This document shows, piece after piece, positions 10,868 through 28,495 of a stretch of 64,000 nt of DNA (its first letter is position 1; every line of letters begins with the position of its first letter). Under the pieces are notes generated by a model. That model did not search any database and was not told where the DNA came from. It saw nothing but the letters and a program-made list of their open reading frames with translations. The stretch is from NCBI RefSeq assembly GCF_003991155.1, contig NZ_CP031293.1; one strand, 5' to 3'. Made by a program: the position numbers and the translations under genes. Source of the stretch: Escherichia coli. Its GTDB lineage: Bacteria > Pseudomonadota > Gammaproteobacteria > Enterobacterales > Enterobacteriaceae.

Positions 10868-11099
10868 TAGCAATACTCTTCTGATTTTGAGAATTGTGAC
10901 TTTGGAAGATTGTAGCGCCAGTCACAGAAAAATGTGATGGTTTTAGTGCCGTTAGCGTAATGTTGAGTGTAAACCCTTAGCGCAGTGAAGCATTTATTAG
11001 CTGAACTACTGACCGCCAGGAGTGGATGAAAAATCCGCATGACCCCATCGTTGACAACCGCCCCGCTCACCCTTTATTTATAAATGTACTACCTGCGCT

Positions 11100-11385
11100 A
11101 GCGCAGGCCAGAAGAGGCGCGTTGCCCAAGTAACGGTGTTGGAGGAGCCAGTCCTGTGATAACACCTGAGGGGGTGCATCGCCGAGGTGATTGAACGGCT
11201 GGCCACGTTCATCATCGGCTACAGGGGCTGAATCCCCTGGGTTGTCACCAGAAGCGTTCGCAGTCGGGCGTTTCGCAAGTGGTGGAGCACTTCTGGGTGA
11301 AAATAGTAGCGAAGTATCGCTCTGCGCCCACCCGTCTTCCGCTCTTCCCTTGTGCCAAGGCTGAAAATGGATCCCCTGACACGAG
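11100..11385 (+). promoter_or_regulatory. lysC 5' leader containing the lysine riboswitch (L box)
   Basis: About 290-nt untranslated leader immediately upstream of lysC with conserved GAAGAGGCGCGTTGCCCAAGTAACGGTGTTGGAGGAGCCAG-type sequence; the antisense ORF here (11067..11612) is spurious. Confidence 0.75.
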
Positions 11386-11391
11386 GTAGTT

Positions 11392-12741
11392 ATGTCTGAA
11401 ATTGTTGTCTCCAAATTTGGCGGTACCAGCGTAGCTGATTTTGACGCCATGAACCGCAGCGCTGATATTGTGCTTTCTGATGCCAACGTGCGTTTAGTTG
11501 TCCTCTCGGCTTCTGCTGGTATCACTAATCTGCTGGTCGCTTTAGCTGAAGGACTGGAACCTGGCGAGCGATTCGAAAAACTCGACGCAATCCGCAATAT
11601 CCAGTTTGCCATTCTGGAACGTCTGCGTTACCCGAACGTTATCCGTGAAGAGATTGAACGTCTGCTGGAGAACATTACTGTTCTGGCAGAAGCGGCGGCG
11701 CTGGCAACGTCTCCGGCGCTGACAGATGAACTGGTCAGCCACGGCGAGCTGATGTCGACCCTGCTGTTTGTCGAAATCCTGCGCGAACGCGATGTTCAGG
11801 CACAGTGGTTTGATGTACGTAAAGTGATGCGTACCAACGACCGATTTGGTCGTGCAGAGCCAGATGTAGCCGCGCTGGCGGAACTGGCCGCGCTGCAGCT
11901 GCTCCCACGCCTCAATGAAGGCTTAGTGATCACCCAGGGATTTATCGGTAGCGAAAATAAAGGTCGGACAACGACGCTTGGCCGTGGAGGCAGCGATTAT
12001 ACGGCAGCCTTGCTGGCGGAGGCTTTACACGCATCTCGTGTTGATATCTGGACCGACGTCCCGGGCATCTACACCACCGATCCACGCGTGGTTTCCGCAG
12101 CAAAACGCATTGATGAAATCGCGTTTGCCGAAGCGGCAGAGATGGCAACTTTTGGTGCAAAAGTACTGCATCCGGCAACGTTGCTACCCGCAGTACGCAG
12201 CGATATCCCGGTCTTTGTCGGCTCCAGCAAAGACCCACGCGCAGGTGGTACGCTGGTGTGCAATAAAACTGAAAATCCGCCGCTGTTTCGCGCGCTGGCG
12301 CTTCGTCGCAATCAGACTCTGCTCACTTTGCACAGCCTGAATATGCTGCATTCTCGCGGTTTCCTCGCGGAAGTTTTCGGCATCCTCGCGCGGCATAATA
12401 TTTCGGTAGACTTAATCACCACGTCAGAAGTGAGCGTGGCATTAACCCTTGATACCACCGGTTCAACCTCCACTGGCGATACCTTGCTGACGCAATCTCT
12501 GCTGATGGAGCTGTCTGCACTATGCCGGGTAGAAGTGGAGGAAGGTCTGGCGCTGGTCGCGTTGATTGGCAATGACCTGTCAAAAGCCTGCGGCGTAGGC
12601 AAAGAGGTATTCGGCGTACTGGAACCGTTCAACATTCGCATGATTTGTTACGGCGCATCCAGCCATAACCTGTGCTTCCTGGTGCCCGGCGAAGATGCCG
12701 AGCAGGTGGTGCAGAAGCTGCATTTTAATTTGTTTGAGTAA
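11392..12741 (+). CDS. lysC: Lysine-sensitive aspartokinase III
   Basis: 449-aa ORF MSEIVVSKFGGTSVADFDAMNRSADIVLSDANVRLVVLSASAG... Confidence 0.97.
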   Translation: MSEIVVSKFGGTSVADFDAMNRSADIVLSDANVRLVVLSASAGITNLLVALAEGLEPGERFEKLDAIRNIQFAILERLRYPNVIREEIERLLENITVLAEAAALATSPALTDELVSHGELMSTLLFVEILRERDVQAQWFDVRKVMRTNDRFGRAEPDVAALAELAALQLLPRLNEGLVITQGFIGSENKGRTTTLGRGGSDYTAALLAEALHASRVDIWTDVPGIYTTDPRVVSAAKRIDEIAFAEAAEMATFGAKVLHPATLLPAVRSDIPVFVGSSKDPRAGGTLVCNKTENPPLFRALALRRNQTLLTLHSLNMLHSRGFLAEVFGILARHNISVDLITTSEVSVALTLDTTGSTSTGDTLLTQSLLMELSALCRVEVEEGLALVALIGNDLSKACGVGKEVFGVLEPFNIRMICYGASSHNLCFLVPGEDAEQVVQKLHFNLFE

Positions 12742-12753
12742 ACGATCAGTAGA

Positions 12754-12783
12754 GGTGAATAGCGACCCACGACGCTATTCACC
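12754..12783. repeat. Perfect 11-bp inverted repeat (GGTGAATAGCG ... CGCTATTCACC) at the lysC 3' end / island junction
   Basis: Seen directly; no adjacent T-run; could be lysC terminator stem or junction element. Confidence 0.5.
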
Positions 12784-12795
12784 ATGCCGGTTCAA

Positions 12796-13143
12796 TTACG
12801 AATTACTGCGGCGCTGTTGCTTTTCCGCATGTACGCGTTTCACAATCTTATAAATCCATTGCAGCGTCAGATTATATTTCTTCGCTAATTCGGCGTAGTT
12901 GCGCCCATCGCACTCGCTATAGATTTGGTAGTCACGCTCCGATGCTCGTCCGGAGATCCCCTTAGGGAAATAAATGCTTTGTCCGCCCCAGTTACGCATC
13001 ATTCGGTCGGCAATGGCAAAGCCCACATTTTCTGCCGATGAACTGTCGAGATTGATGCTTTCAATCAGAACTTGCGATGCATGAAAAGCCAGGTCGTTAA
13101 TGATCTCCGGTGTCCGGGCCATCTCTTTTGATTTTCGTATCAT
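12796..13143 (-). CDS. Mor/C-family (phage Mu middle/late) transcriptional activator
   Basis: 115-aa ORF; C-terminus GGQSIYFPKG...RDYQIYSECDGRNYAELAKKYNLTLQWIYKIVKR matches the conserved Mor/C HTH region (Mu Mor GGGQVYIPRG...RIWNDFNGRNVSELTTRYGVTFNTVYKAIRR); GGAG RBS 7 nt upstream. Confidence 0.8.
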   Translation of the reverse strand: MIRKSKEMARTPEIINDLAFHASQVLIESINLDSSSAENVGFAIADRMMRNWGGQSIYFPKGISGRASERDYQIYSECDGRNYAELAKKYNLTLQWIYKIVKRVHAEKQQRRSNS

Positions 13144-13364
13144 TTTTCATCTCCATATATCTTGCATCCTGAATAAGACCCGATGCGTGTAAAACCACGG
13201 ATATACGCTAAGCAGTTGTCATTACTGCTACTCAATACATTCAACAAACAAATAAACAATTAACAAAAATATAAATTTTTAATATTAATGAACGCCATAA
13301 ATTCATGAAATAGATATATTGTTTGCGTTATGTTTCTTGTCAACAGGTGTATCATTTTACACGA

Positions 13365-13384
13365 TACTGTATACACATACAGTA
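13365..13384. promoter_or_regulatory. LexA operator (SOS box) TACTGTATACACATACAGTA
   Basis: Matches consensus TACTGTATATATATACAGTA at 18/20 with both CTG/CAG half-sites perfect; flanked by inverted TTTTACAC / GTGTAAAA; overlaps a candidate plus-strand sigma-70 promoter (TTTACA-16-TACAGT). Confidence 0.7.
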
Positions 13385-13680
13385 TTATTTTTACTTGTAG
13401 TGTAAAAAGATCGTTTCCCTCACAGTCGCTGACTTTCTTAAACAAACTTTAAAAATCAAATAACTACTGACTATTCCTACGATTCACCATCATCTTTTCC
13501 CTGCATAATGACGCGCTTATTCGCGAGGTCACCTTTTGCTCTTTAATTGCTGAGTGGATTTATTAGCGGGCATGTTCATTTATAGAGAATCTATTTTTTA
13601 AACTTATTTATTAAAGCTTTTTTCATTCTTCACTGGCGGGTTCTGGCGACACTAAACGCTCACTTATCAGGAGATACCGT

Positions 13681-13968
13681 ATGAAAAAAGTCACTCTTCC
13701 CCGGCTTTCCGGTTGGCTGGTCGCTTCCGTCGCGCTGTTTGTCGTGATCGGCTGGACCTCTTCAGCACAAATCCCGGTCGTCATTTATAAACTAAGCCTG
13801 GTTTCGCTTTCCGCGGTGCTGGGATACTGGCTCGATCGCAGTTTGTTCCCCTGGGCACGGCCTGACTCTTTTTGCCCCTGGAAGGAACCGCGTTGCTGCG
13901 CGGCGGCAATGATTCGCCGGGCTATCATCGTTGCTGCCGTCTGCCTTTCCGTCGCGTTAGGGCTATAG
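13681..13968 (+). CDS. Putative holin-like small membrane protein (three predicted hydrophobic segments)
   Basis: 95-aa ORF with hydrophobic helices, immediately upstream of the endolysin gene; function inferred from position. Confidence 0.45.
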   Translation: MKKVTLPRLSGWLVASVALFVVIGWTSSAQIPVVIYKLSLVSLSAVLGYWLDRSLFPWARPDSFCPWKEPRCCAAAMIRRAIIVAAVCLSVALGL

Positions 13969-13970
13969 TG

Positions 13971-14576
13971 ATGTGGCTGAAATATATCGCGTCTATGATT
14001 ATTTTCGTTCTTTTCCCACTCAACGCCTCTGAACCGCCGAGAGCCTCTCTGGCATGGCGAAACGAACTAATTCGTACAGCTCGAGAAGTCTGGGGGCTGA
14101 ATGCCCCAGTGGCCGACTTTGCCGGGCAATTACACCAGGAGTCCGCCTGGCAGCCAATGGTACGTTCCCCCGTTGGCGCACAAGGTATGGCGCAATTTAT
14201 GCCTGCTACAGCGACATGGATAAGCCAGTTGTATCCACAATTGCGTGAAAACAAACCGTATAACCCAACCTGGGCGATTCGCGCGCTGGTGCAATATGAC
14301 CAGCATTTGTGGAAAAACATCTCTGCGAAAAATGATTGTCAGCGTATGGCGTTTACCCTAAGCGCCTATAACGGCGGTCAGGGGTGGGTTAACCGGGATA
14401 AAAAACTGGCTGCATCCAAAGGGTTAGATGCCACTAGCTGGTTTGGTCATGTTGAGCAAGTCAACGCCGGGCGCAGCGCCACGAACTGGCGAGAAAATCG
14501 TCGCTATCCAAAGATGATCCTCTATCAACATGCCGCCCGCTATTTACTCTGGGGACAGGCAAGCTGTCTTCATTAA
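13971..14576 (+). CDS. Endolysin, lytic transglycosylase (SLT domain) with hydrophobic N-terminus (signal or SAR-like)
   Basis: Motifs HQESAW and GAQGMAQFMPATA typical of the SLT catalytic region; start taken at the internal ATG at 13971 just after the upstream ORF stop. Confidence 0.8.
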   Translation: MWLKYIASMIIFVLFPLNASEPPRASLAWRNELIRTAREVWGLNAPVADFAGQLHQESAWQPMVRSPVGAQGMAQFMPATATWISQLYPQLRENKPYNPTWAIRALVQYDQHLWKNISAKNDCQRMAFTLSAYNGGQGWVNRDKKLAASKGLDATSWFGHVEQVNAGRSATNWRENRRYPKMILYQHAARYLLWGQASCLH

Positions 14577-14588
14577 TCAGAGGGGCCG

Positions 14589-14903
14589 ATGAAACTCAGT
14601 ATCGATTTTTGGGAAGTGATCTCCCTTATGCTTTCCTTCGTTGGATTAATGTTTGCTGCCGGAAAACTGCTGTTAGCACAAATTGAAAAACGACTTAATG
14701 AGCGTTTTGAATCTCTGGAAAACGCGCGCCGGGAATCAGAAACAAGTTGGTCGAAACTGGAAAGAGAATTTCTCGAATTTCGTGCCGAGCTTCCGCTGCA
14801 TTATGTCCGCAGAGAAGATTATCTTCGTGGGCAAGCAGTATTAGAAGCGAAGCTGGATGCCTTATATAGCAAAATCGAGCTGTTACAACGTGGCAGTTAT
14901 TGA
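14589..14903 (+). CDS. Putative spanin-like lysis accessory protein (N-terminal TM helix plus coiled coil)
   Basis: 104-aa ORF, N-terminal hydrophobic segment followed by charged coiled-coil-like sequence; position after endolysin. Confidence 0.4.
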   Translation: MKLSIDFWEVISLMLSFVGLMFAAGKLLLAQIEKRLNERFESLENARRESETSWSKLEREFLEFRAELPLHYVRREDYLRGQAVLEAKLDALYSKIELLQRGSY

Positions 14904-14904
14904 A

Positions 14905-14941
14905 AAATCCCCACCCTTATGTAAGGGTGGGGATTTTTTTA
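14905..14941 (+). terminator. Strong rho-independent terminator (ATCCCCACCCTTatgtAAGGGTGGGGAT plus T7) between lysis cassette and tail genes
   Basis: 12-bp perfect stem followed by TTTTTTT; A-run on the other side makes it bidirectional. Confidence 0.7.
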
Positions 14942-15047
14942 ACCATTCAATTTTTTCTCTAAATCACATTAAAAGATTCTTCACCTTCGCTGCTTCAGAA
15001 TACATTTCAACGATAACGAAGTGAGCGGTAATTAAGGTACAGCCTAT

Positions 15048-15503
15048 ATGGAAATTTTATCTGTAATGAATTCTGTTGTGACCAGATTACGTGAACACAA
15101 CTCCGAAATGGATATATTTATTTCATCTAAGGATGCCCAGAAATATATTCCACAGACACAACGAGTTGCAGTGATTATTAATTATAGCGGTTCTGTCTTT
15201 GCTACGCCCGAAAGCAGTAATGCCATCGTGCAACAGCAAATACTCCGCTTAACCGCCACCGTTATTGTTGGCAAAAATTGTGATGCATTAAACGCACTTG
15301 ATCACATACGCAGCGCATTGGGTGGCCTTCAGCTTCCTGATTGCGATCGTCTTCTTTGGCTTGAAAAAGAAATTAATACGGGTGAGAGCGGCGGTTTCTG
15401 CCGCTACATCCTGGAAATGGCGACCAGCTCGCTATTTATCGCTGAACAGGAAAGCACGGATCTTCCCCTGCTTACGGAAGTTAACTACGAGGAAACTGAA
15501 TGA
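15048..15503 (+). CDS. Hypothetical tail-associated protein (first gene of tail operon; possibly tail completion/terminator)
   Basis: 151-aa ORF translationally coupled (ATGA) to the next ORF; role inferred only from position upstream of sheath. Confidence 0.5.
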   Translation: MEILSVMNSVVTRLREHNSEMDIFISSKDAQKYIPQTQRVAVIINYSGSVFATPESSNAIVQQQILRLTATVIVGKNCDALNALDHIRSALGGLQLPDCDRLLWLEKEINTGESGGFCRYILEMATSSLFIAEQESTDLPLLTEVNYEETE

Positions 15504-15697
15504 AATACATCTACAACGGCCCAGCAAGCGGCGTCACCCTTGCCGATGGACAAGAAATCTTATTGTGGCCGAACAGTGAAATTGATCTGCCAGAAGACAA
15601 CGAGTGGGTCATGACCATGATTGCCCGCAATCATCTGACTCCTGTCATCACTCAGGAAGAACAAAATAACGTAGAGGAAATTGTACATGGCAGCTAA
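15500..15697 (+). CDS. Small hypothetical protein (65 aa) preceding tail sheath
   Basis: ORF overlapping neighbours at both ends; typical of small conserved proteins upstream of Mu-like sheath genes. Confidence 0.4.
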   Translation: MKYIYNGPASGVTLADGQEILLWPNSEIDLPEDNEWVMTMIARNHLTPVITQEEQNNVEEIVHGS

Positions 15698-17111
15698 TTA
15701 TCTGCACGGTGTAGAAACTATTGAAATTGAAACCGGCCCGCGTCCGGTTAAAGCGGTAAAATCCGCCGTCATCGCTTTAATCGGTACAGCCCCCTGCGGT
15801 CCGGTAAATAAACCAACATTATGCCTTTCTGAAAGCGATGCTGCGCAGTTTGGCTCGACTCAGGCTAACTTTACGATCCCACAGGCACTGAAGGCAATTT
15901 ATGACCACGGTGCCGGTACGGTGGTGGTGATTAACGTGCTGGATCCGGCAAAACATGGCTCCAACATCAGCAATGAGAGTATCACTTTTGATGCTAACAA
16001 CCAGGCGAAGCTCGCTCACCGCAATGTGCGTAACGTGGTACTAAAGCCCTCTTCATCAAATTCATCAACCTTTAACACCGCAGCATTTAGCGTAGATGAA
16101 CAAACAGGCATAATTACCCGTAAAGGAGCCGACATTCCTCCTGGTGCGAAAGTTTGTGCCTATTATTCCTGGTGCGACCCTACAAAGGTCACCGCAGCCG
16201 ATATTATCGGTACCGTAAATACCGCAGGCGACCGCACGGGGATGAAACTGCTACAGGACACCTATAACCTGTATGGTTTCTACGCCAAAATCCTGCTTGC
16301 TCCCGTGTTCTGTACGCAAAAATCAGTAACTACAGAGCTGATTGCACAAGCGGAAAAACTTGGTGCGATTACCTACATTGATGCCCCGATTGGGACGACA
16401 TTCCAGCAGGTATTGGCAGGACGCGGTTCGCAAGGGGCTATCAACTTCAACACCAGCTCTGATCGTGCGCGTTTATGTTACCCACACGTCAAAGTTTACG
16501 ATGGCATCACTAACCAGGAAGTTCTCGAACCGCTCTCTTCGCGCGCTGCCGGGCTACGTGCCAAAGTAGACCTCGAAAAAGGTTTCTGGTGGAGCAACTC
16601 AAACCAAGAAATTCAGGGTATTACCGGTATTGAACGTTCGCTTTCCGCAATGATTGATGATCCACAAAGCGAAGTGAATCAGCTAAACGAAAACGGCATT
16701 ACCACTATTTTCAATAGTTACGGCTCTGGTCTGCGCTTGTGGGGCAACCGCACTGCAGCGTGGCCTACCGTGACCCATATGCGTAACTTTGAAAACGTCC
16801 GCCGGACAGGCGATGTAATTAATGAGTCAATCCGTTATTTCAGTCAGCAGTATATTGATATGCCGATTAATCAGGCGCTGATTGATGCCCTGACCGAATC
16901 GGTAAATACCTGGGGCCGTAAGCTGATTGCCGACGGCGCACTGCTTGGCTTTGAATGCTGGTACGATCCGGCGCGAAATTCACCGACTGAACTCAGCGCT
17001 GGGCATTTATTGCTGAGCTATAAATTCACCCCACCGCCGCCGCTGGAACGTCTGACGTTTGAAACTGAAATTACTTCTGAATATTTAGTCTCTCTGGAGA
17101 GCAATAGCTAA
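15687..17111 (+). CDS. Contractile phage tail sheath protein
   Basis: About 474-aa ORF starting MAANYLHGVETIEIETGPRPV...; size and N-terminal motif typical of Mu gpL / P2 FI-type sheath proteins; RBS GAGGAAA upstream of the ATG at 15687. Confidence 0.85.
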   Translation: MAANYLHGVETIEIETGPRPVKAVKSAVIALIGTAPCGPVNKPTLCLSESDAAQFGSTQANFTIPQALKAIYDHGAGTVVVINVLDPAKHGSNISNESITFDANNQAKLAHRNVRNVVLKPSSSNSSTFNTAAFSVDEQTGIITRKGADIPPGAKVCAYYSWCDPTKVTAADIIGTVNTAGDRTGMKLLQDTYNLYGFYAKILLAPVFCTQKSVTTELIAQAEKLGAITYIDAPIGTTFQQVLAGRGSQGAINFNTSSDRARLCYPHVKVYDGITNQEVLEPLSSRAAGLRAKVDLEKGFWWSNSNQEIQGITGIERSLSAMIDDPQSEVNQLNENGITTIFNSYGSGLRLWGNRTAAWPTVTHMRNFENVRRTGDVINESIRYFSQQYIDMPINQALIDALTESVNTWGRKLIADGALLGFECWYDPARNSPTELSAGHLLLSYKFTPPPPLERLTFETEITSEYLVSLESNS

Positions 17112-17635
17112 TGGCTGGAAAAATTCAAATTAACCGTATTACCAACGCCAATATTTATCTCGATGGTAATAACCTTTTAGGTCGTGCAACCGAAATTAAA
17201 TTGCCGGATGTCAGTTTAATTATGCAGGAGCATAAAGCACTGGGCATGGTGGGTAAAATCGAACTCCCGGCGGGTTTCGATAAACTGGAGGGCGAAATTA
17301 AATGGAACTCCTTCTATCAGGACGTAATGCGTAAAACGGCAAACCCGTGGCAGGCGGTTGCATTACAGTGCCGCTCCAGTATTGATTGCTATAACTCCCA
17401 GGGGAAAGCGAATCAATTAGCGCTAGTGACACATTTAACCGTGATGTTTAAAAAGAATCCACTGGGCACATTTAAACAGAATGAAAACCCGGAATTCAGC
17501 AGCGCCTTTGGTTGCACTTATATTAAACAAGTAGTTGATGGTGAAACGCTGCTTGAACTTGATTATATGGCCAATATTTTCCGGGTTAATGGTGTGGATC
17601 AATTAAGTACCTATCGCAATAACATCGGTGGCTAA
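17111..17635 (+). CDS. Phage tail tube protein
   Basis: 174-aa ORF directly following sheath (TAATG overlap); sheath-tube order conserved in contractile tails. Confidence 0.8.
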   Translation: MAGKIQINRITNANIYLDGNNLLGRATEIKLPDVSLIMQEHKALGMVGKIELPAGFDKLEGEIKWNSFYQDVMRKTANPWQAVALQCRSSIDCYNSQGKANQLALVTHLTVMFKKNPLGTFKQNENPEFSSAFGCTYIKQVVDGETLLELDYMANIFRVNGVDQLSTYRNNIGG

Positions 17636-17685
17636 GTTATTCGGGGCTACGGCCCCGAACTTTGCAAAATAAATAAGGACACAAA

Positions 17686-18003
17686 ATGAAAGAACATTAT
17701 ATCTTACAGTTCCCGTTTACTTCAGCGGCGGGAGACGTAATTAACACTCTGCAATTACGTCGCCTGAAAGTAAAAGATATGCGCAACGCGCGCCGGATCA
17801 GCGAAAAACCTGAAGAGTGGGATGAACCGCTAATGGCGGCAATGACCGGACTGGTGCCAGAAGATTTAGCTGAAATGGATTTGCTGGATTACCAGGCATT
17901 GCAGAAACGATTTCAATCCATGCTTAGCGTGGCTACAGAATCCGCCACTGTTATGGCAAGCGATGGCGTTACTGGCGAGATGGTTTCGCTTTCCACCCAG
18001 TGA
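17686..18003 (+). CDS. Putative tail assembly chaperone (gpE-like position)
   Basis: 105-aa acidic ORF between tube and tape measure genes. Confidence 0.5.
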   Translation: MKEHYILQFPFTSAAGDVINTLQLRRLKVKDMRNARRISEKPEEWDEPLMAAMTGLVPEDLAEMDLLDYQALQKRFQSMLSVATESATVMASDGVTGEMVSLSTQ

Positions 18004-18192
18004 GATAGACGCCCTTACCGTCGATGACTTTAGCAACTGGCTGGATGAAGCCAGCGCCCAAATAAAAATCGAATATGACTCGCAGACCTGATGTCTGCGA
18101 GTTTCCCAAGCCCGTCAGGTTTATTTCTTCCCTGCCCCTTTTTTTAGAAAAATAACCAGCGGGCCATTATCAATATTTAAAGAGAAACAATT

Positions 18193-20568
18193 TTGGCCAA
18201 CGATATTATTACCCAGCTTCAGGCGCGTAATGAGACGTTGACGCAGGCAATAGCCCGTTACGGCTCACTCAACGCCAGAACATTGTTAACTCTCTCTACT
18301 CAGCAGGCGACAGTTATCAAACTAACGCAGCAGCTTGCCGATTCCGCTCTCCGCCTGGAGGAAAATAGCCGCAGCCGCGCTAATCTGATGGAGAAAACCC
18401 AAACATTTGCCGGGCAATTTAGCAAAGTATTCAATGTTGAAGCCCCCGACTGGAAGTTGCCGTATGAGTTTCAGGACAACATGGTCAATATGGCGACCAA
18501 AGGTGGGATGAATGCTACAACCCGCGAGACGCTCAGCCTTAATCTGCGCGACTGGAGCATGGATTTTAACCAGCAGCAGACCACCTTACAGAACGCAGCC
18601 CAAACGCTGATCGAAGGCAATTTGTCGTCGATACAGGATCTCAACCGTTATATGCCGGAGATCGCCAAAGCTGCCACCGCCACGCGCGAAAGTGCTGAAA
18701 CATGGGCGAATGCCGCGCTCGCAACCCATGATCGACTGAATATTGCCCCGGAAAATTTCCACGCCGCGCAAAACATGATGTACGGCATTAGCAAAAGCGG
18801 TGGGCCTGCCATTGCTGAACAAACGCAGTGGATAGAGAAATTTGCAGGTAAAACCGGCGCTCAGGGTCTGGAAGGTATGGCTGAACTGACCGCCACCATG
18901 CAGATCGCCATGAAAAACGGGGCCAGCGCCAGTGCGGCGGCGGAGAATTTCGACCACTTTCTGCAAACCACCTTTTCGAAAAAAACCGATTACTGGTTCG
19001 TCAGCCAGGGCGTTGATCTGCAAGGCTCTCTGCTTGAGCATCAGCAAAACGGTATGGGTGTTAGCGAAGCCATGACTCATATCGTGCAAATGCAGCTTGA
19101 GAAGATGAATCCGGCGATCCTCGACACCTTCAAACGCACCATGCAGATCGAAGATTTATCTGCCCGCAGCAATGCGCTGCAATCGATGGTGACGCAGTTT
19201 AATCTGGGGGAAATGTTCGGCGATGCGCAAACAGTGGAATTCCTGGCCCCTATGCTGGCGAATATGGAGGAATATCGCCAGTTAAAAGCCTCTGCCATGC
19301 AAGCCACCAGCAAGAATCTGATTGATGCCGACTTTTCTGCGCAAATGGCCTCGCCCATTGAACAGACTAAAGCGTTACAGCTGGCGTTAAATGATTTATG
19401 GCTCAGCATTGGCTTGCAATTAATGCCGCTGATTGGCGAGCTGGCACAAAGCCTTACGCCGGTTATTCGTCAGTTCAGCGCCTGGCTACGTGAGCACCCG
19501 ACACTGGTGCAAAACATCGCGAAAATCGTCGGGGCGATTTGGCTGTTTAACGGTGCGCTGAATGTTTTAAAGCTGGGCGCGAACCTCATCACCTCGCCGT
19601 TTATTCGTCTGGTCGATATCTTCCTGAAAGTCAAGGCAAGTCTGGCGCTCACAGGCGGGGCAAGTAAGATGCTATCAGCGGTTAAGTCATTGGGTGGCGG
19701 CGCAAAATGGCTAACGCAACTGCTTGGTCGTGGCCTGATTGGAACATTGAAACTGGTTGGTCGGACCGTTCTCTCACTAGGCCGGGTGCTACTGATGAAT
19801 CCCATTGGTCTGGTCATCACTGCGATTGCGGGCGCTGCTTATCTGATTTATCGCAACTGGGAGCCTATCTCCAGGTTCTTTTCGACCATCTGGCAACGTA
19901 TCACCACGGCCTTTGACGGCGGCATTGCAGGAATTTGTCGGTTGATTCTCGACTGGTCACCGCTGGAGTTGTTCTATAGCGCCTTTTCCAGTGTGATGAA
20001 TTGGTTTGGTGTCGAGATGCCTGCAAGTTTTAGCGAGTTCGGCAGCAATCTTCTGGGCAGTCTGGTTGACGGCATAATGAATGCCTTCCCCGCTCTGAAA
20101 GGCATTATTGATCAGGTAAAAAACGCCATCCCAGACTGGCTAAAAACCACGATGGGTATTAGTACAGAAGGATCGGCTACAGCTATTACAAGCACGACTA
20201 ATACCGCATCCGTCTCCCCCGCGACCGTTGTTCCAGGCGTTGCCGGTGCGATTTTAACGCCGCCGGTGGGCAAACAACTCGCGCCATCCGGCAAAACGGC
20301 TACGCCGTCATCGGCGCCAGCGGCAAAAAATACAGCCGCCAAACCCGTATCTGCCTCTTTACCTGGTAAATCCGTAACCAAAGCGGCGACGCTACCTTCC
20401 CGTTCCTCAGGAAAAGTTCAGGTGAATTTTTCGCCACAAATTACCGTGCAGGGTAACGGACAAAACACCACTAAAGAGATTCAGAACGTGTTGACGATGA
20501 GTAAACGCGAACTGGAAAGAATGATTAACGATGTAATGGCGCAGCAGCAGCGCCGGGGGTATGCCTAA
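18193..20568 (+). CDS. Tail tape measure protein
   Basis: 791-aa ORF, alpha-helical and Ala/Gln-rich with central hydrophobic segments; position after chaperone; start codon uncertain (TTG at 18193 in track). Confidence 0.8.
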   Translation: MANDIITQLQARNETLTQAIARYGSLNARTLLTLSTQQATVIKLTQQLADSALRLEENSRSRANLMEKTQTFAGQFSKVFNVEAPDWKLPYEFQDNMVNMATKGGMNATTRETLSLNLRDWSMDFNQQQTTLQNAAQTLIEGNLSSIQDLNRYMPEIAKAATATRESAETWANAALATHDRLNIAPENFHAAQNMMYGISKSGGPAIAEQTQWIEKFAGKTGAQGLEGMAELTATMQIAMKNGASASAAAENFDHFLQTTFSKKTDYWFVSQGVDLQGSLLEHQQNGMGVSEAMTHIVQMQLEKMNPAILDTFKRTMQIEDLSARSNALQSMVTQFNLGEMFGDAQTVEFLAPMLANMEEYRQLKASAMQATSKNLIDADFSAQMASPIEQTKALQLALNDLWLSIGLQLMPLIGELAQSLTPVIRQFSAWLREHPTLVQNIAKIVGAIWLFNGALNVLKLGANLITSPFIRLVDIFLKVKASLALTGGASKMLSAVKSLGGGAKWLTQLLGRGLIGTLKLVGRTVLSLGRVLLMNPIGLVITAIAGAAYLIYRNWEPISRFFSTIWQRITTAFDGGIAGICRLILDWSPLELFYSAFSSVMNWFGVEMPASFSEFGSNLLGSLVDGIMNAFPALKGIIDQVKNAIPDWLKTTMGISTEGSATAITSTTNTASVSPATVVPGVAGAILTPPVGKQLAPSGKTATPSSAPAAKNTAAKPVSASLPGKSVTKAATLPSRSSGKVQVNFSPQITVQGNGQNTTKEIQNVLTMSKRELERMINDVMAQQQRRGYA

Positions 20569-21521
20569 TGTATGCCGTTTTAGGAGAGATTGAATTTAAG
20601 GTTGTCACATTCTGGGACGGCTTTAAAAGCACAATGGGCGTGGATTACGCCACACATGCCCGTATAGAAGGCAAACCCGGCGTGCAGTTTATTGGCGATA
20701 AGCTGGATATGCTGGCGCTGGAATTTTCCCTGCACAGCCAGTTTTGCCAGCCCACAACAGAGCTGAACCGACTGCGTGAAGCCATGCTTGCTCACAAGGC
20801 GATGGCACTGGTATTTGGCAATGGCGATTATCGCGGCTGGTTTGTGATTACGGAGCTAACCGCCACCCACCAGCACACCGATCCCTGGGGCAATGTGATT
20901 GCCCAAAACGGAACGATGTCGCTCCAGGAGTACACCGGCGATCCTAAAAATCCACTTTTACCTCCGGCGATTACCACCCAGGAGCCCAACATCGAGGAAA
21001 AGGCGAGCGATTTTCCCGACAAGGTGGAGTCCTGGTTTGATCAGATATTAAACGCCATTGAAGAAGGTATGCGTAAGGCCAAAGAGATGCTGGATGAACT
21101 GACACAATCCATTGAAGATATTAAAAAAACGGTGGCAAAAGTGAAAGCAATGATTAAAGAGGCCAAAGCGTTAAAAGAAAAGTGTGAAAAGATAATTACG
21201 TCATTGAAAAAGACAATCGACGCCATCGAAACCCTGTTTAAACAGCCAATGGATCTGCAAACGCTGGCAGGCCTACCAAAAGCGTTGTCGGCGCAGATTA
21301 AAGCTTTACTGGGTAACATGCCAGGTATCCGGGACTGCGCCAATGACGCCAGTACGCTGGTTGACCATGCTCAGGCGCTTTTCGACGACATTACCAGCGA
21401 CATCGCCGAAGCGACGTTCGATAAAGCCACGTCGTTGGTTGAGCAGGCACGTACAACGGTACAACAAACCACTCCCGCAGTGAGCCAGCTTGCTGCCGTA
21501 ACCATTACCAGGAGCTGGTAA
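20568..21521 (+). CDS. Tail protein, P2 gpU-like N-terminal domain with coiled-coil C-terminal extension
   Basis: N-terminal region (ARIEGKPGVQFIG...WFVITELTATHQHT) resembles the P2 gpU / Mu N N-terminal family; overlaps TMP stop. Confidence 0.7.
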   Translation: MYAVLGEIEFKVVTFWDGFKSTMGVDYATHARIEGKPGVQFIGDKLDMLALEFSLHSQFCQPTTELNRLREAMLAHKAMALVFGNGDYRGWFVITELTATHQHTDPWGNVIAQNGTMSLQEYTGDPKNPLLPPAITTQEPNIEEKASDFPDKVESWFDQILNAIEEGMRKAKEMLDELTQSIEDIKKTVAKVKAMIKEAKALKEKCEKIITSLKKTIDAIETLFKQPMDLQTLAGLPKALSAQIKALLGNMPGIRDCANDASTLVDHAQALFDDITSDIAEATFDKATSLVEQARTTVQQTTPAVSQLAAVTITRSW

Positions 21522-21730
21522 TGCGATACCTTGAACATATCACCACCGATGGCGAACGCTGGGATAACCTGGCATGGCATTACTACGGTGATGCGCTGGC
21601 TTATGAACGCATAATCGCCGCCAATCCACATGTAGCCATTTACCCGGTACTGCCTTCCGGTATTCAGCTCATTATTCCGGTCATTTCCGTTAATAAAACC
21701 TTATCGGAGATCCCACCATGGCTGAGATGA
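21521..21730 (+). CDS. Tail protein X-like (small LysM-like tail protein)
   Basis: 69-aa ORF with AANP...LP.G pattern as in P2 gpX; located between U-like and D-like genes as in R-type pyocin clusters. Confidence 0.7.
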   Translation: MRYLEHITTDGERWDNLAWHYYGDALAYERIIAANPHVAIYPVLPSGIQLIIPVISVNKTLSEIPPWLR

Positions 21731-22758
21731 GCGTAACTGGTGGCGTCTTTGCCACACTCACGCCCATTTTTACCCTCTGGTATGGGCATAAAGATATCAC
21801 TTATGACATCACACCCTATGTCACCAGCATCAGTTACCACGACAGCATCAAAAACGAGTCGGATACCATCGCAATTACACTGGATGACACAGATGGACGC
21901 TGGATAAAAGAGTGGTATCCCGGCAAAGGCGATACGCTGGCGCTGCATATAGGTTATCAGGGGGAAAAGCTGCTCGATTGTGGCCAGTATATTATTGATA
22001 AAATTGATATTTCAGCGCCACCTTCCACGGTAAATATTGATGGCATCGCCACTTCCGTCAATCAGGCGCTGCGCACCCGTAACAGCCAGGGCTTTGAAGA
22101 AACGACGCTTTCGGCGATCGCCAGCCGTATTGCCCAAACGCACGGTCTGAAACTGGTGGGCAAAATCGAGTCGCTCACCATCGACCGGGTAACGCAGTAT
22201 GGTGAAACCGATGTCGGATTTCTCAAACGTCTGGCCAGTGAATATGGTTATGCCGTAAAAGTGACGACAAAAGAGCTGATTTTTTCACATTTACCCACGC
22301 TGCGCTGCCTGACGCCTGTGAAAAAGATCGATCGCAAAGAGGTTTCTCATTTTACCTTCAAAGACACCATTAACCGGATCTACAAGAACGCCACCGTACA
22401 GCATCAAAATAGTAAGAAAAAAGAACTGGTTATCTACACTCACAACAGCCAGCAAAAACCATCTGTCCGTGGAGTCGGCACTAGTGCCGACACGCTAAAA
22501 CTGAACAGTCGGGCGACGGACGTTGGCGCAGCACAGGCAAAGGCTAACGCTGCACTCGACAGCCACAACGAATATCAGCAAACCGGAACGCTCACAATGA
22601 TGGGCTGCCCGGAACTGACGGCGGGCAATAAAATTGAACTGACCGATTTTGGCGTGATTTCCGGTCAGTGGCTGATTGATAAATCTACTCACAGTTTTGT
22701 GCGCAGCGGCTATACCACTGAAATCGACGTGTCACGCGGGCCAGCGACCAGCCAGTAA
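21718..22758 (+). CDS. Phage late control D-like / Mu gpP-like tail (baseplate hub) protein
   Basis: 346-aa ORF in the conserved U-X-D position. Confidence 0.75.
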   Translation: MAEMSVTGGVFATLTPIFTLWYGHKDITYDITPYVTSISYHDSIKNESDTIAITLDDTDGRWIKEWYPGKGDTLALHIGYQGEKLLDCGQYIIDKIDISAPPSTVNIDGIATSVNQALRTRNSQGFEETTLSAIASRIAQTHGLKLVGKIESLTIDRVTQYGETDVGFLKRLASEYGYAVKVTTKELIFSHLPTLRCLTPVKKIDRKEVSHFTFKDTINRIYKNATVQHQNSKKKELVIYTHNSQQKPSVRGVGTSADTLKLNSRATDVGAAQAKANAALDSHNEYQQTGTLTMMGCPELTAGNKIELTDFGVISGQWLIDKSTHSFVRSGYTTEIDVSRGPATSQ

Positions 22759-22767
22759 GGAGGAAAT

Positions 22768-23469
22768 ATGAAAGGAGTAACCCGTCAAACGGGGATTATC
22801 AGCGATATTGACGAAACCAGTGTTCGGGTACGGGTCACTCTACCAGAGTGTGACAATCTGAAGAGCAACTGGCTTGCGGTACTTCAACGCAATTCCCAGG
22901 ACAATAAAGACTACTGGCTACCGGATATGGGCGAGCAAGTGGAAGTTCTGCTGGACGATAACGGTGAAGATGGCGTGGTGCTGGGTGCCGTTTATTCTAC
23001 GGTTGACACCGCGCCTGTAGCCTCGCGCGACAAACGTTACGTCCAGTTTTCTGATGGCGCAGCGTTTGAATATGACCGCAGCACGCACCAGCTGACGATT
23101 AACGGCGGTATCGAGAAAATCGTGATTGAGGTTATCGACAGCACCCGCCTGACATCGCCCAACGTTGAGATTAAAGCCCAACACGTCACCGTGACTTCCG
23201 ATACCGTCGATGTTAAAGCGACCGATGTCAGCATCGACGCCACTAAGGTCGAGGTTAAAGCAGCAGCAGTGACGGTAGATGCGCCCATGAGCACCTTTAC
23301 TGGCAACGTCACGGTAATGAAAAAACTCACCTGGCTTGGCGGGATGGCAGGAAGTGGAGGCATCGGTAACGCAGCCACGATAACCGGCAATGTCAACGTG
23401 ATCGGCAACGTTCAGGCCAGCGGCGCATTGCAGGACAGCGGTGGCAACTCCAACCACCATTCACACTGA
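22768..23469 (+). CDS. Baseplate assembly protein V-like (central spike)
   Basis: 233-aa ORF; N-terminal OB-fold-like region and C-terminal repetitive beta region (VTVTSDTVDVKATDVSIDATKVEVKAAAVTVDA) typical of gpV spikes. Confidence 0.8.
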   Translation: MKGVTRQTGIISDIDETSVRVRVTLPECDNLKSNWLAVLQRNSQDNKDYWLPDMGEQVEVLLDDNGEDGVVLGAVYSTVDTAPVASRDKRYVQFSDGAAFEYDRSTHQLTINGGIEKIVIEVIDSTRLTSPNVEIKAQHVTVTSDTVDVKATDVSIDATKVEVKAAAVTVDAPMSTFTGNVTVMKKLTWLGGMAGSGGIGNAATITGNVNVIGNVQASGALQDSGGNSNHHSH

Positions 23470-23472
23470 CTT

Positions 23473-23505
23473 TTAACCCGCCTGATGGCGGGTTTTCTCT
23501 TTTTA
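23473..23505 (+). terminator. Hairpin (AACCCGCCtgatGGCGGGTT) plus T-rich tract after the spike gene; possible partial intra-operon terminator
   Basis: Perfect 8-bp stem followed by TTCTCTTTTT. Confidence 0.5.
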
Positions 23506-23567
23506 ATCAATCAGTTTTCTAAATCGCTTTAATATCTCCACAGCCCGTTCAGGGCGAAAATACCCTC

Positions 23568-23927
23568 ATGAACACAAAAACACGCCCCTCAACGCTGCAC
23601 TGGCAACCGGCCTTGCAGCGGCCTGAAGAATACGTCTGCGGGCTGGATGATATTCACCAGGCAATACACATCATTCTGCGTACACCGCGCGGCAGTGATC
23701 CCCACAGACCGCTGTTTGGCAGCAACTTGTGGCACTACATCGATTACCCCATCGAGCGGGCTATCCCGCATGTGGTACGGGAGTCGGTGGAAGCCATCCG
23801 CCAGTGGGAACCGCGCTGTCGGTTGCTGAAGGTGACACCAGTAATCGACGGCGAACATCTGACGTTACGTGTGCAATGGCGCGCCGCTGACGGCGTTATC
23901 AACTCAACGGAGGTGTTATGGCGATAG
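23568..23927 (+). CDS. Baseplate wedge protein gpW / gp25-like
   Basis: 119-aa ORF; PRGSDPHRPLFGSNLWHYIDYP resembles the GPW_gp25 family core. Confidence 0.75.
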   Translation: MNTKTRPSTLHWQPALQRPEEYVCGLDDIHQAIHIILRTPRGSDPHRPLFGSNLWHYIDYPIERAIPHVVRESVEAIRQWEPRCRLLKVTPVIDGEHLTLRVQWRAADGVINSTEVLWR

Positions 23928-25033
23928 CCGAACCCAATTTTATTGACCGCGATCCTGCGCAAATTACCAGTGAGATGATTGCGCAATACGAAGATGCCAG
24001 TGGTAAAAAACTCTATCCGGCACAGGCTGAGCGGTTGCTCATCGACCTGTTTGCCTATCGTGAAAACCTTGTACGCATCGCCATTCAGGAAGCGGCGAAA
24101 CAAAACCTGGTCGCGTATTCCCGCGCGCCAATGCTGGATTATTTAGGGGAGTTGGTGGGAGTTCACCGTTTGCCTGCGCAGCCTGCAAAAACGACGTTGC
24201 AGTTTTCGGTCGTTAGTGCGTATCCCGGCAATATCCTGATTCCCCAGGGGACGCGGGCCAGTGCCTCTGATAGCGTGATGTTCGCCACCGATGAAGATGT
24301 TCTGCTTCCGGCCAGGAGTTTGCATATCGCCGTTCCTGCCACCAGCCTCGCAGCAGGTGAACAGGGTAACGGCTGGCAGCCTGCACAAATTAGCGCACTG
24401 GTCGACAGGATTGGTCATTATGACATCAACGTAACCAACCTGACTGCGTCAACGGGCGGCTGCGGTGAAGAGAGCGATGACGCATTGCGCCAGCGTATCC
24501 AACTGGCACCAGAAAGCTTTAGTAATGCGGGCAGCTATGGTGCCTACCGCTTTCATACGCTTTCTGTTAGCCAGTCGATTATTGACGTTGCAGTACTGGG
24601 GCCGGACGAGGGATTGCCAGAAGGCTGCGTGGAGATCTACCCGCTAACCCTGAATGGTCTACCCGGCACGGAGTTGCTGGCGCAGATTGAACAAGAAGTC
24701 AGCAAGGAGAAAAAACGACCGCTGACCGACAAAGTGAGTGCGAAATGCGCTCTTCGAGTGCCGTATGAGATCCGTGCGCAGCTAATGCTGTTTACCACCG
24801 CCGATCAGGAGACAACGCTGGCTGCGGCGCGTAAAGCGATTAGCCTCTGGACGCAACAGCGGCAGAAACATCTGGGGCAGGACATTGTGCCAAACCAGAT
24901 AATCAAAGTGTTACAGGTCGATGGCGTCTATGACGTTGCGCTGAATATGCCTACAAAACGTATTTTGCAGGCGCATGAATGGGCGGAATGCACTGCAATA
25001 GACGTCACGATTGCCGGAGTCAGCGATGGATAA
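23918..25033 (+). CDS. Baseplate protein J-like
   Basis: 371-aa ORF after gpW with GGAGG RBS; W-J-I order. Confidence 0.8.
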   Translation: MAIAEPNFIDRDPAQITSEMIAQYEDASGKKLYPAQAERLLIDLFAYRENLVRIAIQEAAKQNLVAYSRAPMLDYLGELVGVHRLPAQPAKTTLQFSVVSAYPGNILIPQGTRASASDSVMFATDEDVLLPARSLHIAVPATSLAAGEQGNGWQPAQISALVDRIGHYDINVTNLTASTGGCGEESDDALRQRIQLAPESFSNAGSYGAYRFHTLSVSQSIIDVAVLGPDEGLPEGCVEIYPLTLNGLPGTELLAQIEQEVSKEKKRPLTDKVSAKCALRVPYEIRAQLMLFTTADQETTLAAARKAISLWTQQRQKHLGQDIVPNQIIKVLQVDGVYDVALNMPTKRILQAHEWAECTAIDVTIAGVSDG

Positions 25034-25742
25034 ATTGCTGCCACCGCCGCCGCTTGCCAGCGATGAGCGTTTTTCGATTCTGGCAAACATCGCCGCCGAG
25101 CGTTTTGCCCAACTCGATCTGACGGCGTTGATGGTTTATCTGGTCGACCTGGTTGATGCTTCGGCATTACCAGCCCTTGCAGAACAATTTCACGTTCAGG
25201 GGCTGGAAGGTTGGTTATTTACCACCGATGAGCGGGAGAAACGCGAGTTAATTAAACAAGCCATTGAACTGCATAAATATAAAGGAACAATTTGGGCGGT
25301 ACGGCGAGTGCTGGAAATACTTTCCTTACCCGGAACTATTTCAGAATGGTTTGAATATGGGGGAAGGGCTTATTTTTTTAAGGTAAATATTACACTAGAG
25401 GAAAAAGGATTAAATGAAGATGAATTCAATGCACTTATCACATTAATTCATGAATATAAAAATGTTCGTTCAAAGCTGGAAAGCATTGTTATTTGGCTTA
25501 TTAATCGAAGCCCAATACCAGTTATTGGCAGCGCCATGCAAGGAGGGGAAGTCATTACAGTATTGCCTCCTGTTGCAGAAAGCCTCAGCCAGTCATCAGG
25601 AATATTTTTAGCGACGGGTTATTGTGTGGAGGAATATATCCAACTACTACCTTATCAACCCGATCGCCTTACACAATCCCAACCGATGAAGGTCGGCACA
25701 GGATACTGGAGCACCGAAATTATGTCTGTATATCCGGAGTAA
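25026..25742 (+). CDS. Tail protein I-like (baseplate)
   Basis: About 238-aa ORF from ATG 25026 overlapping J stop; position before tail fiber. Confidence 0.7.
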
Positions 25743-25744
25743 TA

Positions 25745-27325: not shown

Positions 27326-28029
27326 ATACTTTTACCTTTTCTGATGAAGCTCAAATACTAACTGTATATAATTTTTCACAAGACTCCCAAGAATATATCG
27401 GTGAGTCTGATGCATACATTGCACCTAATACAGGCTTGCCAAATTATTGCACATTAATTTCACCTCCCGAAAAGGCTCCTGGTTTTACTCCAGTGTGGGA
27501 GAATGAAACATGGAGACTTATTGAAGATCATCGAGGCCAAACTGTTTATAACAAAGTTGATGGTAGCCAGCTTATTATTCAAGAATTGGGCCAATTACCT
27601 GAAAATGTAACAGTCATTTCCCCGACAGGTTCTTTTGAACGTTGGGATGGTGAAAAATGGCAACCATCTATAACCGATGCTAAAGAGGCGAAATACTCTG
27701 CAATCAAAAATCAACGCGATGCCATCACAACCGATTACATCATCATCAACAACCATCACTTCCACAGTGATACAAATAGCCGTATCCAACAGCTTTCACT
27801 CACAAAAATGGGAGCGGAGAAAAAAATTCCGCCAGGGTTAATGTGGAAAACTAAAAATAATGGTCTGATTGAGTTAACCAACGAAATCGCTGCCCAGTTT
27901 GAATCGGTCACCATGGATCACGATATGCGCTTGTTCGCAAACGCCCAGCGTCATATCGCGGCGGTGGAAGCACTGGACGATATTCAGGCGGTGCTCGACT
28001 ACGATTATTCAACAGGCTGGCAACCATGA
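27322..28029 (+). CDS. Tail fiber assembly (chaperone) protein
   Basis: 235-aa ORF overlapping the fiber stop (ATGA); lower GC than surrounding genes, typical of host-range modules. Confidence 0.75.
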
Positions 28030-28481: not shown

Positions 28482-28495
28482 AATAACGCCGGGCA

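What the first reader, a model, noticed from the sequence alone, without database searches (positions are those of the whole stretch)
12754..12783. Perfect 11-bp inverted repeat exactly at the lysC / island boundary
GGTGAATAGCG...CGCTATTCACC forms a strong stem with no T-run, 12 bp after the lysC stop and 13 bp before the Mor-like gene stop. It may be the native lysC terminator stem, a bidirectional terminator for the convergent genes, or a remnant of the integration junction.
Basis: seen in the sequence. Interest (0 to 1): 0.2.

Follow-up and report, generated by a model that had tools for sequence, protein, structure and literature searches.

The report
Conserved hairpin between lysC and mor
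The 11-bp inverted repeat is real and belongs to the phage-tail island rather than to lysC; its pairing has been kept across several enterobacterial genera, and it most likely marks transcript ends between lysC and the island's mor gene, which makes it well supported but ordinary.

Summary
Arms lie at 12754-12764 and 12773-12783, are perfectly complementary, and enclose an 8-nt loop. No T-run follows on either strand.

It is not the native lysC terminator. In 3757 of 5426 complete E. coli genomes lysC is followed by a different, canonical terminator, and homology to the window stops at 12741-12751.

The hairpin travels with the island's Mor-family gene. It lies about 10-14 nt past the mor stop in E. 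coli, Salmonella, Phytobacter and Superficieibacter, and in metagenomic contigs with no lysC within the 1.5 kb held. A further 1434 E. coli genomes keep a homologous hairpin but carry a zeta-toxin gene instead of mor and the tail genes.

Across seven variants, 6 of 11 stem pairs change on both sides while 96% of cells stay paired. Loops range from 4 to 11 nt and are unrelated in sequence.

Best reading (inferred, no transcript data): an island-borne stem-loop that forms transcript 3' ends between convergent lysC and mor, of the U-tract-less bidirectional terminator kind.

No matching half-site or direct repeat supports an integration-junction origin.

The surrounding island is a tail-only remnant of a BcepMu-like phage.

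Low interest; a new member of a known kind.

The parts
11392..12741 (+). lysC (lysine-sensitive aspartokinase III); stop TAA at 12739-12741
   Evidence: ORF listing; RefSeq annotation of the 100%-identical record NZ_CP029747.1; lysine riboswitch upstream at 11104-11300
12742..12753 (.). 12-nt spacer holding the junction between core-genome DNA and island DNA
   Evidence: Megablast homology to island-free genomes ends at query positions 342-352, which is window 12741-12751; alignments
12754..12764 (.). Left arm of the stem, GGTGAATAGCG
12765..12772 (.). Loop, ACCCACGA; length and sequence are not conserved among homologues (4-11 nt)
12773..12783 (.). Right arm of the stem, CGCTATTCACC
   Evidence: covariation count
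12784..12795 (.). 12-nt spacer between the stem and the mor stop codon; partly conserved with mor (CCGGCAT / CCGGGCAT in the mor sense)
   Evidence: Alignment
12796..13143 (-). Mor-family transcription activator gene, convergent with lysC; homologue of BcepMu gp01
   Evidence: Pfam PF08765, E = 7e-38; tblastn 49% identity to BcepMu gp01 and 90% to Salmonella STM4219

Best explanation
The inverted repeat is an island-borne stem-loop whose structure has been conserved. It came in with the mor gene of a BcepMu-like, tail-only phage remnant, and it now occupies the whole gap between the convergent stop codons of lysC and mor. In this haplotype it replaces the native lysC terminator. Because the arms are a perfect palindrome, the same 11-bp stem forms in both the lysC and the mor transcript. 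I infer that it acts at the RNA level as a transcript-end element in both directions. It could pause RNA polymerase and define 3' ends, as proposed for U-tract-less 'overlapping bidirectional terminators' between convergent E. coli genes. It could also protect 3' ends made further downstream from exonucleases. Either way it would keep lysC transcription out of mor and the reverse. Shown here: its position, its membership of the island, its absence from island-free genomes, its compensatory evolution, and the lack of U-tracts. Inferred: termination or 3'-end formation, and action in both directions.
For: Island membership, not lysC:
- Homology to island-free genomes stops at 12741-12751.
- K-12-type genomes (3757 of 5426) have a different canonical terminator, and their first 80 intergenic nt have no counterpart in the window.

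The hairpin travels with mor:
- It lies about 10-14 nt after the mor stop in E. coli (two haplotypes), Salmonella Infantis SARB27 (the STM4219 homologue), Phytobacter massiliensis and two Superficieibacter species.
- It is also present in metagenomic contigs L031-L033, where no lysC lies within the 1.5 kb downstream that is held.

Structural selection:
- On seven variants, 96.1% of cells pair and 6 of 11 pairs change on both sides.
- None of 500 shuffles reaches the observed values, and slid controls pair only 20-45%.
- Loops are 4-11 nt and unrelated in sequence.
- In a diverged IAI1-type flank, 7 substitutions in 144 nt include 1 in the loop and none in the stem.

Retention without mor:
- 1434 E. 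coli genomes keep the hairpin directly after lysC although mor and the tail genes are replaced by a zeta-toxin gene. This suggests it also serves lysC.

Position matches phage relatives:
- In Pasteurellaceae Mu-like prophages (Mor 45% identical) a canonical terminator follows the mor stop directly.

Precedent:
- Bidirectional terminators between convergent E. coli genes encode hairpins, do not resemble intrinsic terminators and do not depend on Rho (bioRxiv 10.1101/2022.10.23.513370, read).

Energetics:
- The stem is stable: -16.8 to -18.6 kcal/mol alone, -23.9 in context, z = -4.5.
Against: - No U-tract follows the stem on either strand in any of the eight variants (0-4 U in the first 8 nt; T-run weight 0.04-1.6, against 3.6-4.9 for most clear terminators tested in the same window). 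It therefore fails the definition of an intrinsic terminator.
- No transcript 3'-end data were available, so termination is not shown.
- In L031-L033 a second hairpin with a T-run follows directly, which could be the real mor terminator there.
- In Salmonella a REP-like palindrome lies between the hairpin and lysC and could serve lysC.
- Concerted changes in both arms of a DNA palindrome can also arise by template-switch (quasipalindrome) mutation without RNA-level selection (established knowledge, not tested here).
- The seven variants are few and related.
Confidence: 0.6

Rival explanations
1. It is the native lysC terminator stem and is present regardless of the island.
For: It starts 12 nt after the lysC stop. 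IAI1-type genomes without mor or tail genes keep a homologous hairpin there.
Against: 69% of E. coli genomes (3757) have a different, canonical terminator at that position and no trace of this hairpin. In Salmonella the hairpin is about 90 nt from lysC but 14 nt from mor. L031-L033 have mor plus the hairpin without lysC. The IAI1 spacer and stem resemble those of the Superficieibacter mor-bearing haplotype, which marks IAI1 as a derivative of a mor-bearing island.
Confidence: 0.02
2. It is a relic of the integration or transposition junction: an att site, or the terminal inverted repeat of the ancestral Mu-like (BcepMu-like) transposable phage, with no present function.
For: It sits 3-13 nt from the point where homology to island-free genomes ends. 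In BcepMu-like phages mor is the last gene before the left end. Window 12746-12764 shares 10 of 13 terminal nt with the BcepMu left end (TGAAGAGAGGTGA against TCAGTAGAGGTGA). A 10-of-11 inverted copy of the arm lies at 28425-28435, about 47 nt inside the right junction of the tail cluster.
Against: The 28425 site is coding sequence (WRYSP) and does not follow the hairpin's changes in Salmonella (CGCTACTCCCC against arm CGCTATACGCC) or in Ec-U9-2 (CGCTATTCCCC against CGCTACTCGCC). There is no half-site within 3 mismatches and no direct repeat of 8 nt or more at 30400-30960. The island has no integrase or transposase. A dead relic would not keep its pairing through six double-sided changes. The upstream 8 nt that resemble the BcepMu end are not conserved in the other variants.
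Confidence: 0.07
3. It is a double-stranded DNA palindrome bound by a dimeric protein, for example an operator for the Mor-like activator or a host regulator.
For: It has perfect 11-bp dyad symmetry. Mor and C family proteins bind dyad-symmetric sites (established knowledge of Mu Mor and C, not tested here). The arm core GGCGTATAGC is fairly conserved in sequence across genera.
Against: The spacing between half-sites varies from 4 to 11 nt, which a fixed dimer cannot accommodate. Symmetric double changes keep complementarity rather than sequence. The site lies downstream of both genes, not at a promoter. It persists in IAI1-type genomes that lack mor.
Confidence: 0.06
4. It is a palindrome with no function, kept symmetric by template-switch (quasipalindrome) repair, that persists by hitch-hiking next to mor.
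For: Perfect arm symmetry with concerted changes is what template switching produces (established knowledge, not tested here). There is no U-tract, and no experimental evidence of function.
Against: It is retained at the same place in at least four genera and in three different contexts (mor with lysC, mor alone, lysC with zeta toxin), while everything around it was deleted or replaced to within a few nt. An IS1-mediated deletion in strain MSB1_4I shows how easily the region is lost. Imperfect variants exist (a T-T mismatch in Ec-U9-2, a U-G pair in L031), so homogenisation is not complete.
Confidence: 0.12

Closest known systems
Overlapping bidirectional terminators between convergent E. coli genes (Ju, Li and Liu 2019, as cited in and extended by Wang et al., bioRxiv 10.1101/2022.10.23.513370)
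   Same: A single stem-loop sits in the short gap (54 nt here) between two convergent stop codons. It forms in both transcripts and does not look like an intrinsic terminator, having no U-tract.
   Different: No 3'-end mapping exists for this locus. The expression level of mor, needed for polymerase collisions, is unknown. The hairpin is also kept where the partner gene is absent (IAI1-type and L031-type contexts).
Canonical Rho-independent terminator, such as the native K-12 lysC terminator or the mor terminator of Pasteurellaceae Mu-like prophages
   Same: A stable stem-loop a few nt after a stop codon, in the same position relative to lysC (K-12) or to mor (the prophages).
   Different: It lacks the U-run on both strands in every variant. 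Its sequence is unrelated to the K-12 terminator.
3'-terminal protective stem-loops of Rho-terminated or processed transcripts, including REP-type stabilisers
   Same: A stable stem without a U-tract in a 3' untranslated region, which could block 3'-to-5' exonucleases.
   Different: It is single-copy per genome, so it is not a REP or BIME repeat. In Salmonella it lies next to a REP-like palindrome without resembling it.
Terminal repeats of BcepMu-like transposable phages
   Same: It lies where the phage left end would be, just beyond mor, and shows a short resemblance to the BcepMu terminal sequence.
   Different: There is no covarying copy at the other end, no transposase, no recognisable target duplication, and the stem is under structural conservation.

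Membership tests
Native lysC terminator | Present after lysC in genomes that lack the island | tested here: not met
   K-12, GN06156 and 3757 of 5426 genomes carry a different terminator; the hairpin is absent from them
Rho-independent (intrinsic) terminator | Stable G+C-containing stem-loop shortly after the stop codon | tested here: met
   11-bp stem, -16.8 to -18.6 kcal/mol, 12 nt from each stop codon
Rho-independent (intrinsic) terminator | U-rich tract directly 3' of the stem | tested here: not met
   2-3 U in the first 8 nt on either strand in the window and 0-4 across all variants; not called by the terminator scan
Overlapping bidirectional terminator of a convergent gene pair | Lies between convergent genes and encodes a hairpin in both transcripts | tested here: met
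   It is the only structured element in the 54-nt gap between lysC and mor, and its palindromic arms fold in both senses. The same arrangement occurs in Phytobacter and Superficieibacter
Overlapping bidirectional terminator of a convergent gene pair | Overlapping transcript 3' ends at the hairpin; independent of Rho | not testable with these tools
   Needs SEnd-seq or Term-seq, with and without bicyclomycin
Mu-like transposable-phage end / terminal inverted repeat | Matching inverted copy at the opposite end of the element, changing together with it in relatives | tested here: not met
   The only near-copy (28425-28435) is coding sequence and does not co-vary in Salmonella or Ec-U9-2; nothing at 30400-30960
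Mu-like transposable-phage end / terminal inverted repeat | Terminal 5'-TG and similarity to known ends | tested here: inconclusive
   10 of 13 match to the BcepMu left end, but with TC rather than TG, and the match is not conserved in the other variants
REP/BIME or other dispersed palindromic repeat | Many copies per genome | tested here: not met
   One place per genome (median 1, highest 2) in the 154 genomes with a match; only the two arms themselves in the window
Described RNA family (Rfam) | Match to a curated covariance model | tested here: not met
   Only the lysine riboswitch matches in 11000-14000 at E <= 1

The most novel reading that the evidence does not exclude
The hairpin could be more than a passive transcript end. 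It might be the one element that must survive every rearrangement at this hotspot, because it insulates the tail-cluster activator mor from lysC. Being a leaky, U-tract-less barrier, it would let lysC read-through, which rises when the lysine riboswitch is open, run antisense into mor. That would couple lysine supply to expression of the phage-tail (tailocin-like) cluster. A second version of this reading: the hairpin is the fixed left anchor at which cargo (tail cluster or zeta toxin) is exchanged.
Probability: 0.06. Interest if true: 0.5.

Novelty: new member of a known kind. Interest (0 to 1): 0.15.

Why it matters
On its own it matters little. It is a small untranslated stem-loop of a familiar kind.

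It is useful as a marker. It shows that the lysC-yjbD hotspot in E. coli has three haplotypes: the native terminator (69%), hairpin plus zeta toxin (26%), and hairpin plus mor plus a BcepMu-like tail cluster (3.6%). It also shows that the zeta-toxin haplotype derives from a mor-bearing one.

It is a clean natural example of a stem kept by compensatory changes without a U-tract between convergent genes. That makes it a convenient test case for collision-type bidirectional termination.

If it is leaky, it could link lysC transcription to the regulator of a tailocin-like cluster.

Tried and rejected
- **Native lysC terminator:** rejected by comparison with K-12, GN06156 and the census of E. coli flanks.
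- **Matching half-site at the right boundary:** nothing within 3 mismatches at 30400-30960, and no shared direct or inverted word of 8 nt or more.
- **The 10-of-11 site at 28425-28435:** it looked significant by position, with about a 0.004 chance of lying within 100 nt of the tail-cluster junction. It is coding sequence and does not co-vary in Salmonella or Ec-U9-2.
- **Resemblance to BcepMu terminal sequences**: not conserved in the other hairpin variants, so treated as chance.
- **Dispersed repeat, REP or attC-like element:** single copy per genome; integron core sites are not matched (by eye).
- **Rfam:** no family other than the lysine riboswitch.
- **d'Aubenton-Carafa-type terminator score** (formula recalled from memory, modern energy parameters): poorly calibrated, since even the K-12 terminator scored negative with my stem boundaries. 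Only the U counts and T-run weights are used.
- **Literature:** searches for STM4219 and for a tailocin next to lysC found nothing on this hairpin. The ST131 'tailocin' paper (PMC9205054) concerns a different, P2-like prophage.
- **IMG/VR prophage calls:** most end exactly at the mor stop codon and so do not include the hairpin.
- **MAFFT alignment A4:** it misaligned the Phytobacter right arm, so the covariation count rests on A3.

Full report
**Observation.**
The window reads GGTGAATAGCG (12754-12764), ACCCACGA (12765-12772), CGCTATTCACC (12773-12783). This is a perfect 11-bp inverted repeat with an 8-nt loop.
- The lysC stop codon is at 12739-12741, so 12 nt precede the stem.
- The convergent Mor-family ORF (12796-13143, minus strand; Pfam PF08765, E = 7e-38) has its stop at 12796-12798, so 12 nt follow the stem.
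- The region folds at -23.9 kcal/mol, z = -4.5 against shuffles.
- Perfect repeats of this size with a 3-12 nt loop occur at 4 loci in the window, against 0.2 expected. The other three have A/T runs on both sides like classical bidirectional terminators. This one has none.

**Where the window comes from and what surrounds the hairpin.**
The region is 100% identical to E. coli 2016C-3878 (NZ_CP029747.1). The gene order is as follows:
- pgi, the lysine riboswitch and lysC;
- the hairpin;
- mor on the minus strand;
- a holin, a lytic transglycosylase and a membrane protein;
- a contractile-tail gene set running from the Gp37-family gene to the tail fibre and its assembly proteins, ending at 28481;
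- an RlaP-type nucleotidyltransferase (28496-29296, minus strand);
- a slipin/SPFH protein (29293-30420, minus strand);
- yjbD.

Mor is 49% identical to gp01 of Burkholderia phage BcepMu, which is the last gene before the left end of that transposable phage. The lysis and tail genes follow BcepMu order. There are no head, transposase or repressor genes. The island is therefore a tail-only remnant of a BcepMu-like phage. Salmonella carries the same cluster next to lysC (LT2 tags STM4198-STM4219). Prophage surveys label it 'BcepMu' and infer that it was present in the ancestor of S. Typhimurium (PMC5945981, PMC7302871).

**It is not the native lysC terminator.**
Homology to most E. coli genomes stops at window 12741-12751. 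K-12 and GN06156 have lysC followed directly by GGCCyGGAAG...TTCGGGCC and a T-run, then yjbD 253 nt downstream of lysC. This flank is complete in 3757 of 5426 genomes. Its first 80 nt, which include the terminator, have no counterpart in the window. Only nt 81-103 (window 30487-30509) and nt 123-252 (window 30819-30948) match. The island and the native terminator segment are therefore alternative alleles, and the hairpin occupies the terminator's position.

**The hairpin belongs to the island and travels with mor.**
- The junction of lysC, hairpin and mor is present in 196 genomes. Of these, 154 carry this exact type, at one place per genome, so it is not a dispersed repeat.
- Ec-U9-2, a 94.7%-identical haplotype, has GGCGAGTTGCG...CGCTACTCGCC.
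- Salmonella has GGCGTATAGCG-cttgt-CGCTATACGCC, 14 nt from the mor stop but about 90 nt from lysC, with a REP-like palindrome in between.
- Phytobacter massiliensis and two Superficieibacter species have mor, then 7-9 nt, the hairpin, then 8-10 nt and the lysC stop.
- Three metagenomic viral contigs (L031-L033; Mor 88% identical) have the hairpin 12 nt after mor and no lysC in the 1.5 kb downstream that is held.
- In 1434 E. coli genomes of the IAI1 type, a homologous hairpin (GGCGTATAAC...GTTATACGCC) directly follows lysC, but a zeta-toxin gene replaces mor and the tail cluster. Homology to the window resumes at 28477-28482, at the 3' end of the nucleotidyltransferase gene.
- The IAI1 spacer and stem resemble the Superficieibacter version. 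I read the IAI1 haplotype as a derivative of a mor-bearing one in which the hairpin was spared.
- In strain MSB1_4I an IS1 sits in the right arm and the tail cluster is deleted.

**Structural conservation.**
On the seven-variant alignment A3:
- The 11-pair stem is paired in 96.1% of cells.
- Six pairs carry changes on both sides, for example U-A to C-G and A-U to U-A or G-C.
- None of 500 column shuffles reaches the observed values.
- Sliding the 3' arm by 1-3 columns drops pairing to 20-45%.
- Loops range from 4 to 11 nt with unrelated sequences.
- A diverged IAI1-type flank has 7 substitutions in 144 nt, one in the loop and none in the 20 stem positions.

The variable spacing argues against a dimeric DNA-binding site and for a folded single strand. 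Two caveats apply. The variants are few and related. Template-switch mutation can also produce concerted changes in palindromes.

**Mechanism.**
No variant has a U-tract on either strand. U counts in the first 8 nt are 0-4, and the T-run weight is 0.04-1.6, against 3.6-4.9 for most clear terminators tested in the same window and for the mor terminator of Pasteurellaceae Mu-like prophages. It is therefore not a canonical intrinsic terminator.

Three facts point to a transcript-end function that works in both senses:
- It sits immediately after mor in every context.
- It is the only structured element in the 54-nt gap between the convergent genes.
- It is retained after lysC where mor is gone.

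The closest described kind is the bidirectional terminator between convergent E. coli genes. Those elements encode a hairpin, do not resemble intrinsic terminators and are independent of Rho. They are proposed to pause polymerases so that head-on and trailing collisions release them (bioRxiv 10.1101/2022.10.23.513370). A role as a 3'-end protective stem after downstream termination is equally compatible with the sequence data. These functional steps are inferred. No transcript data could be consulted.

**The integration-junction idea.**
The hairpin is at the junction, but nothing links it to recombination.
- There is no integrase or transposase.
- There is no half-site within 3 mismatches and no direct repeat at 30400-30960.
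- The 10-of-11 copy at 28425-28435 is coding sequence that does not co-vary.
- The short resemblance of 12746-12764 to the BcepMu ends is not shared by the other variants.

**Verdict.**
The feature is real, non-random and conserved, and it is ordinary in kind. It is a stem-loop brought by the island that stands between lysC and mor in place of the native lysC terminator. Its most probable role is to form transcript ends in both directions. Interest is low. Its main value is as a marker of the haplotype history at the lysC-yjbD hotspot and as a tidy test case for U-tract-less bidirectional termination.

Noticed in passing
window 12796-28481: The 'island' is a tail-only cluster with no head, transposase or repressor genes. 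It holds a Mor activator, a holin, a lytic transglycosylase, and genes from sheath and tube to tail fibre, in BcepMu gene order. This is a tailocin-like remnant of a BcepMu-like transposable phage. The same cluster sits next to lysC in Salmonella (STM4198-STM4219), Phytobacter and Superficieibacter. RefSeq marks the tape-measure gene (18193-20568) as a pseudogene with an internal stop, although a 791-codon ORF is open there.
   Followed up: partly
window 28482-30420; L001 2343-4342: The lysC-yjbD gap is a three-haplotype hotspot in E. coli: bare (3757 genomes), hairpin plus zeta toxin plus RlaP-type nucleotidyltransferase plus slipin (1434), and hairpin plus tail cluster plus nucleotidyltransferase plus slipin (196). 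The tail cluster and the zeta-toxin gene are exact alternatives between the hairpin and AATAACGCCGGGC at the 3' end of the nucleotidyltransferase gene. This may be a defence or toxin module; it was not examined.
   Followed up: partly
window 30510-30818: About 309 nt between the slipin gene and yjbD have no counterpart in the K-12 intergenic region, which matches only 30487-30509 and 30819-30948. The content was not analysed.
   Followed up: no
L006 2538-2560 (E. coli MSB1_4I): An IS1 element is inserted inside the right arm of the hairpin (CGCTATT|GGTAATGACTCC...). The sequence from mor to part of the nucleotidyltransferase gene is missing, and an IS4 element lies beyond.
   Followed up: partly
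L021 7586-10421 (Salmonella Infantis SARB27): The Salmonella version of the tail cluster carries a gtrABC-like O-antigen glucosylation operon (STM4204-4206) inserted between the baseplate genes. It is absent from the E. coli window.
   Followed up: no
window 14903-14938: A 17-bp perfect inverted repeat (AAAAATCCCCACCCTTA / TAAGGGTGGGGATTTTT) lies right after the 104-aa membrane-protein gene of the lysis cassette. It is a textbook bidirectional terminator, in contrast to the hairpin studied here.
   Followed up: no
window 12746-12764 against L008 1-22 and 36727-36748: There is a short resemblance between the sequence entering the left arm (TCAGTAGAGGTGAATAG) and the BcepMu terminal repeats (TGAAGAGAGGTGAGATAT and TGAAGCGCGGCGCGATAT). 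It is probably chance, but it lies where a phage left end would be.
   Followed up: partly
NZ_CP020025.1 (E. coli WB61), hit H32: This genome has two places matching the 59-nt hairpin query, the only kind of exception to one copy per genome. The second place was not inspected.
   Followed up: no
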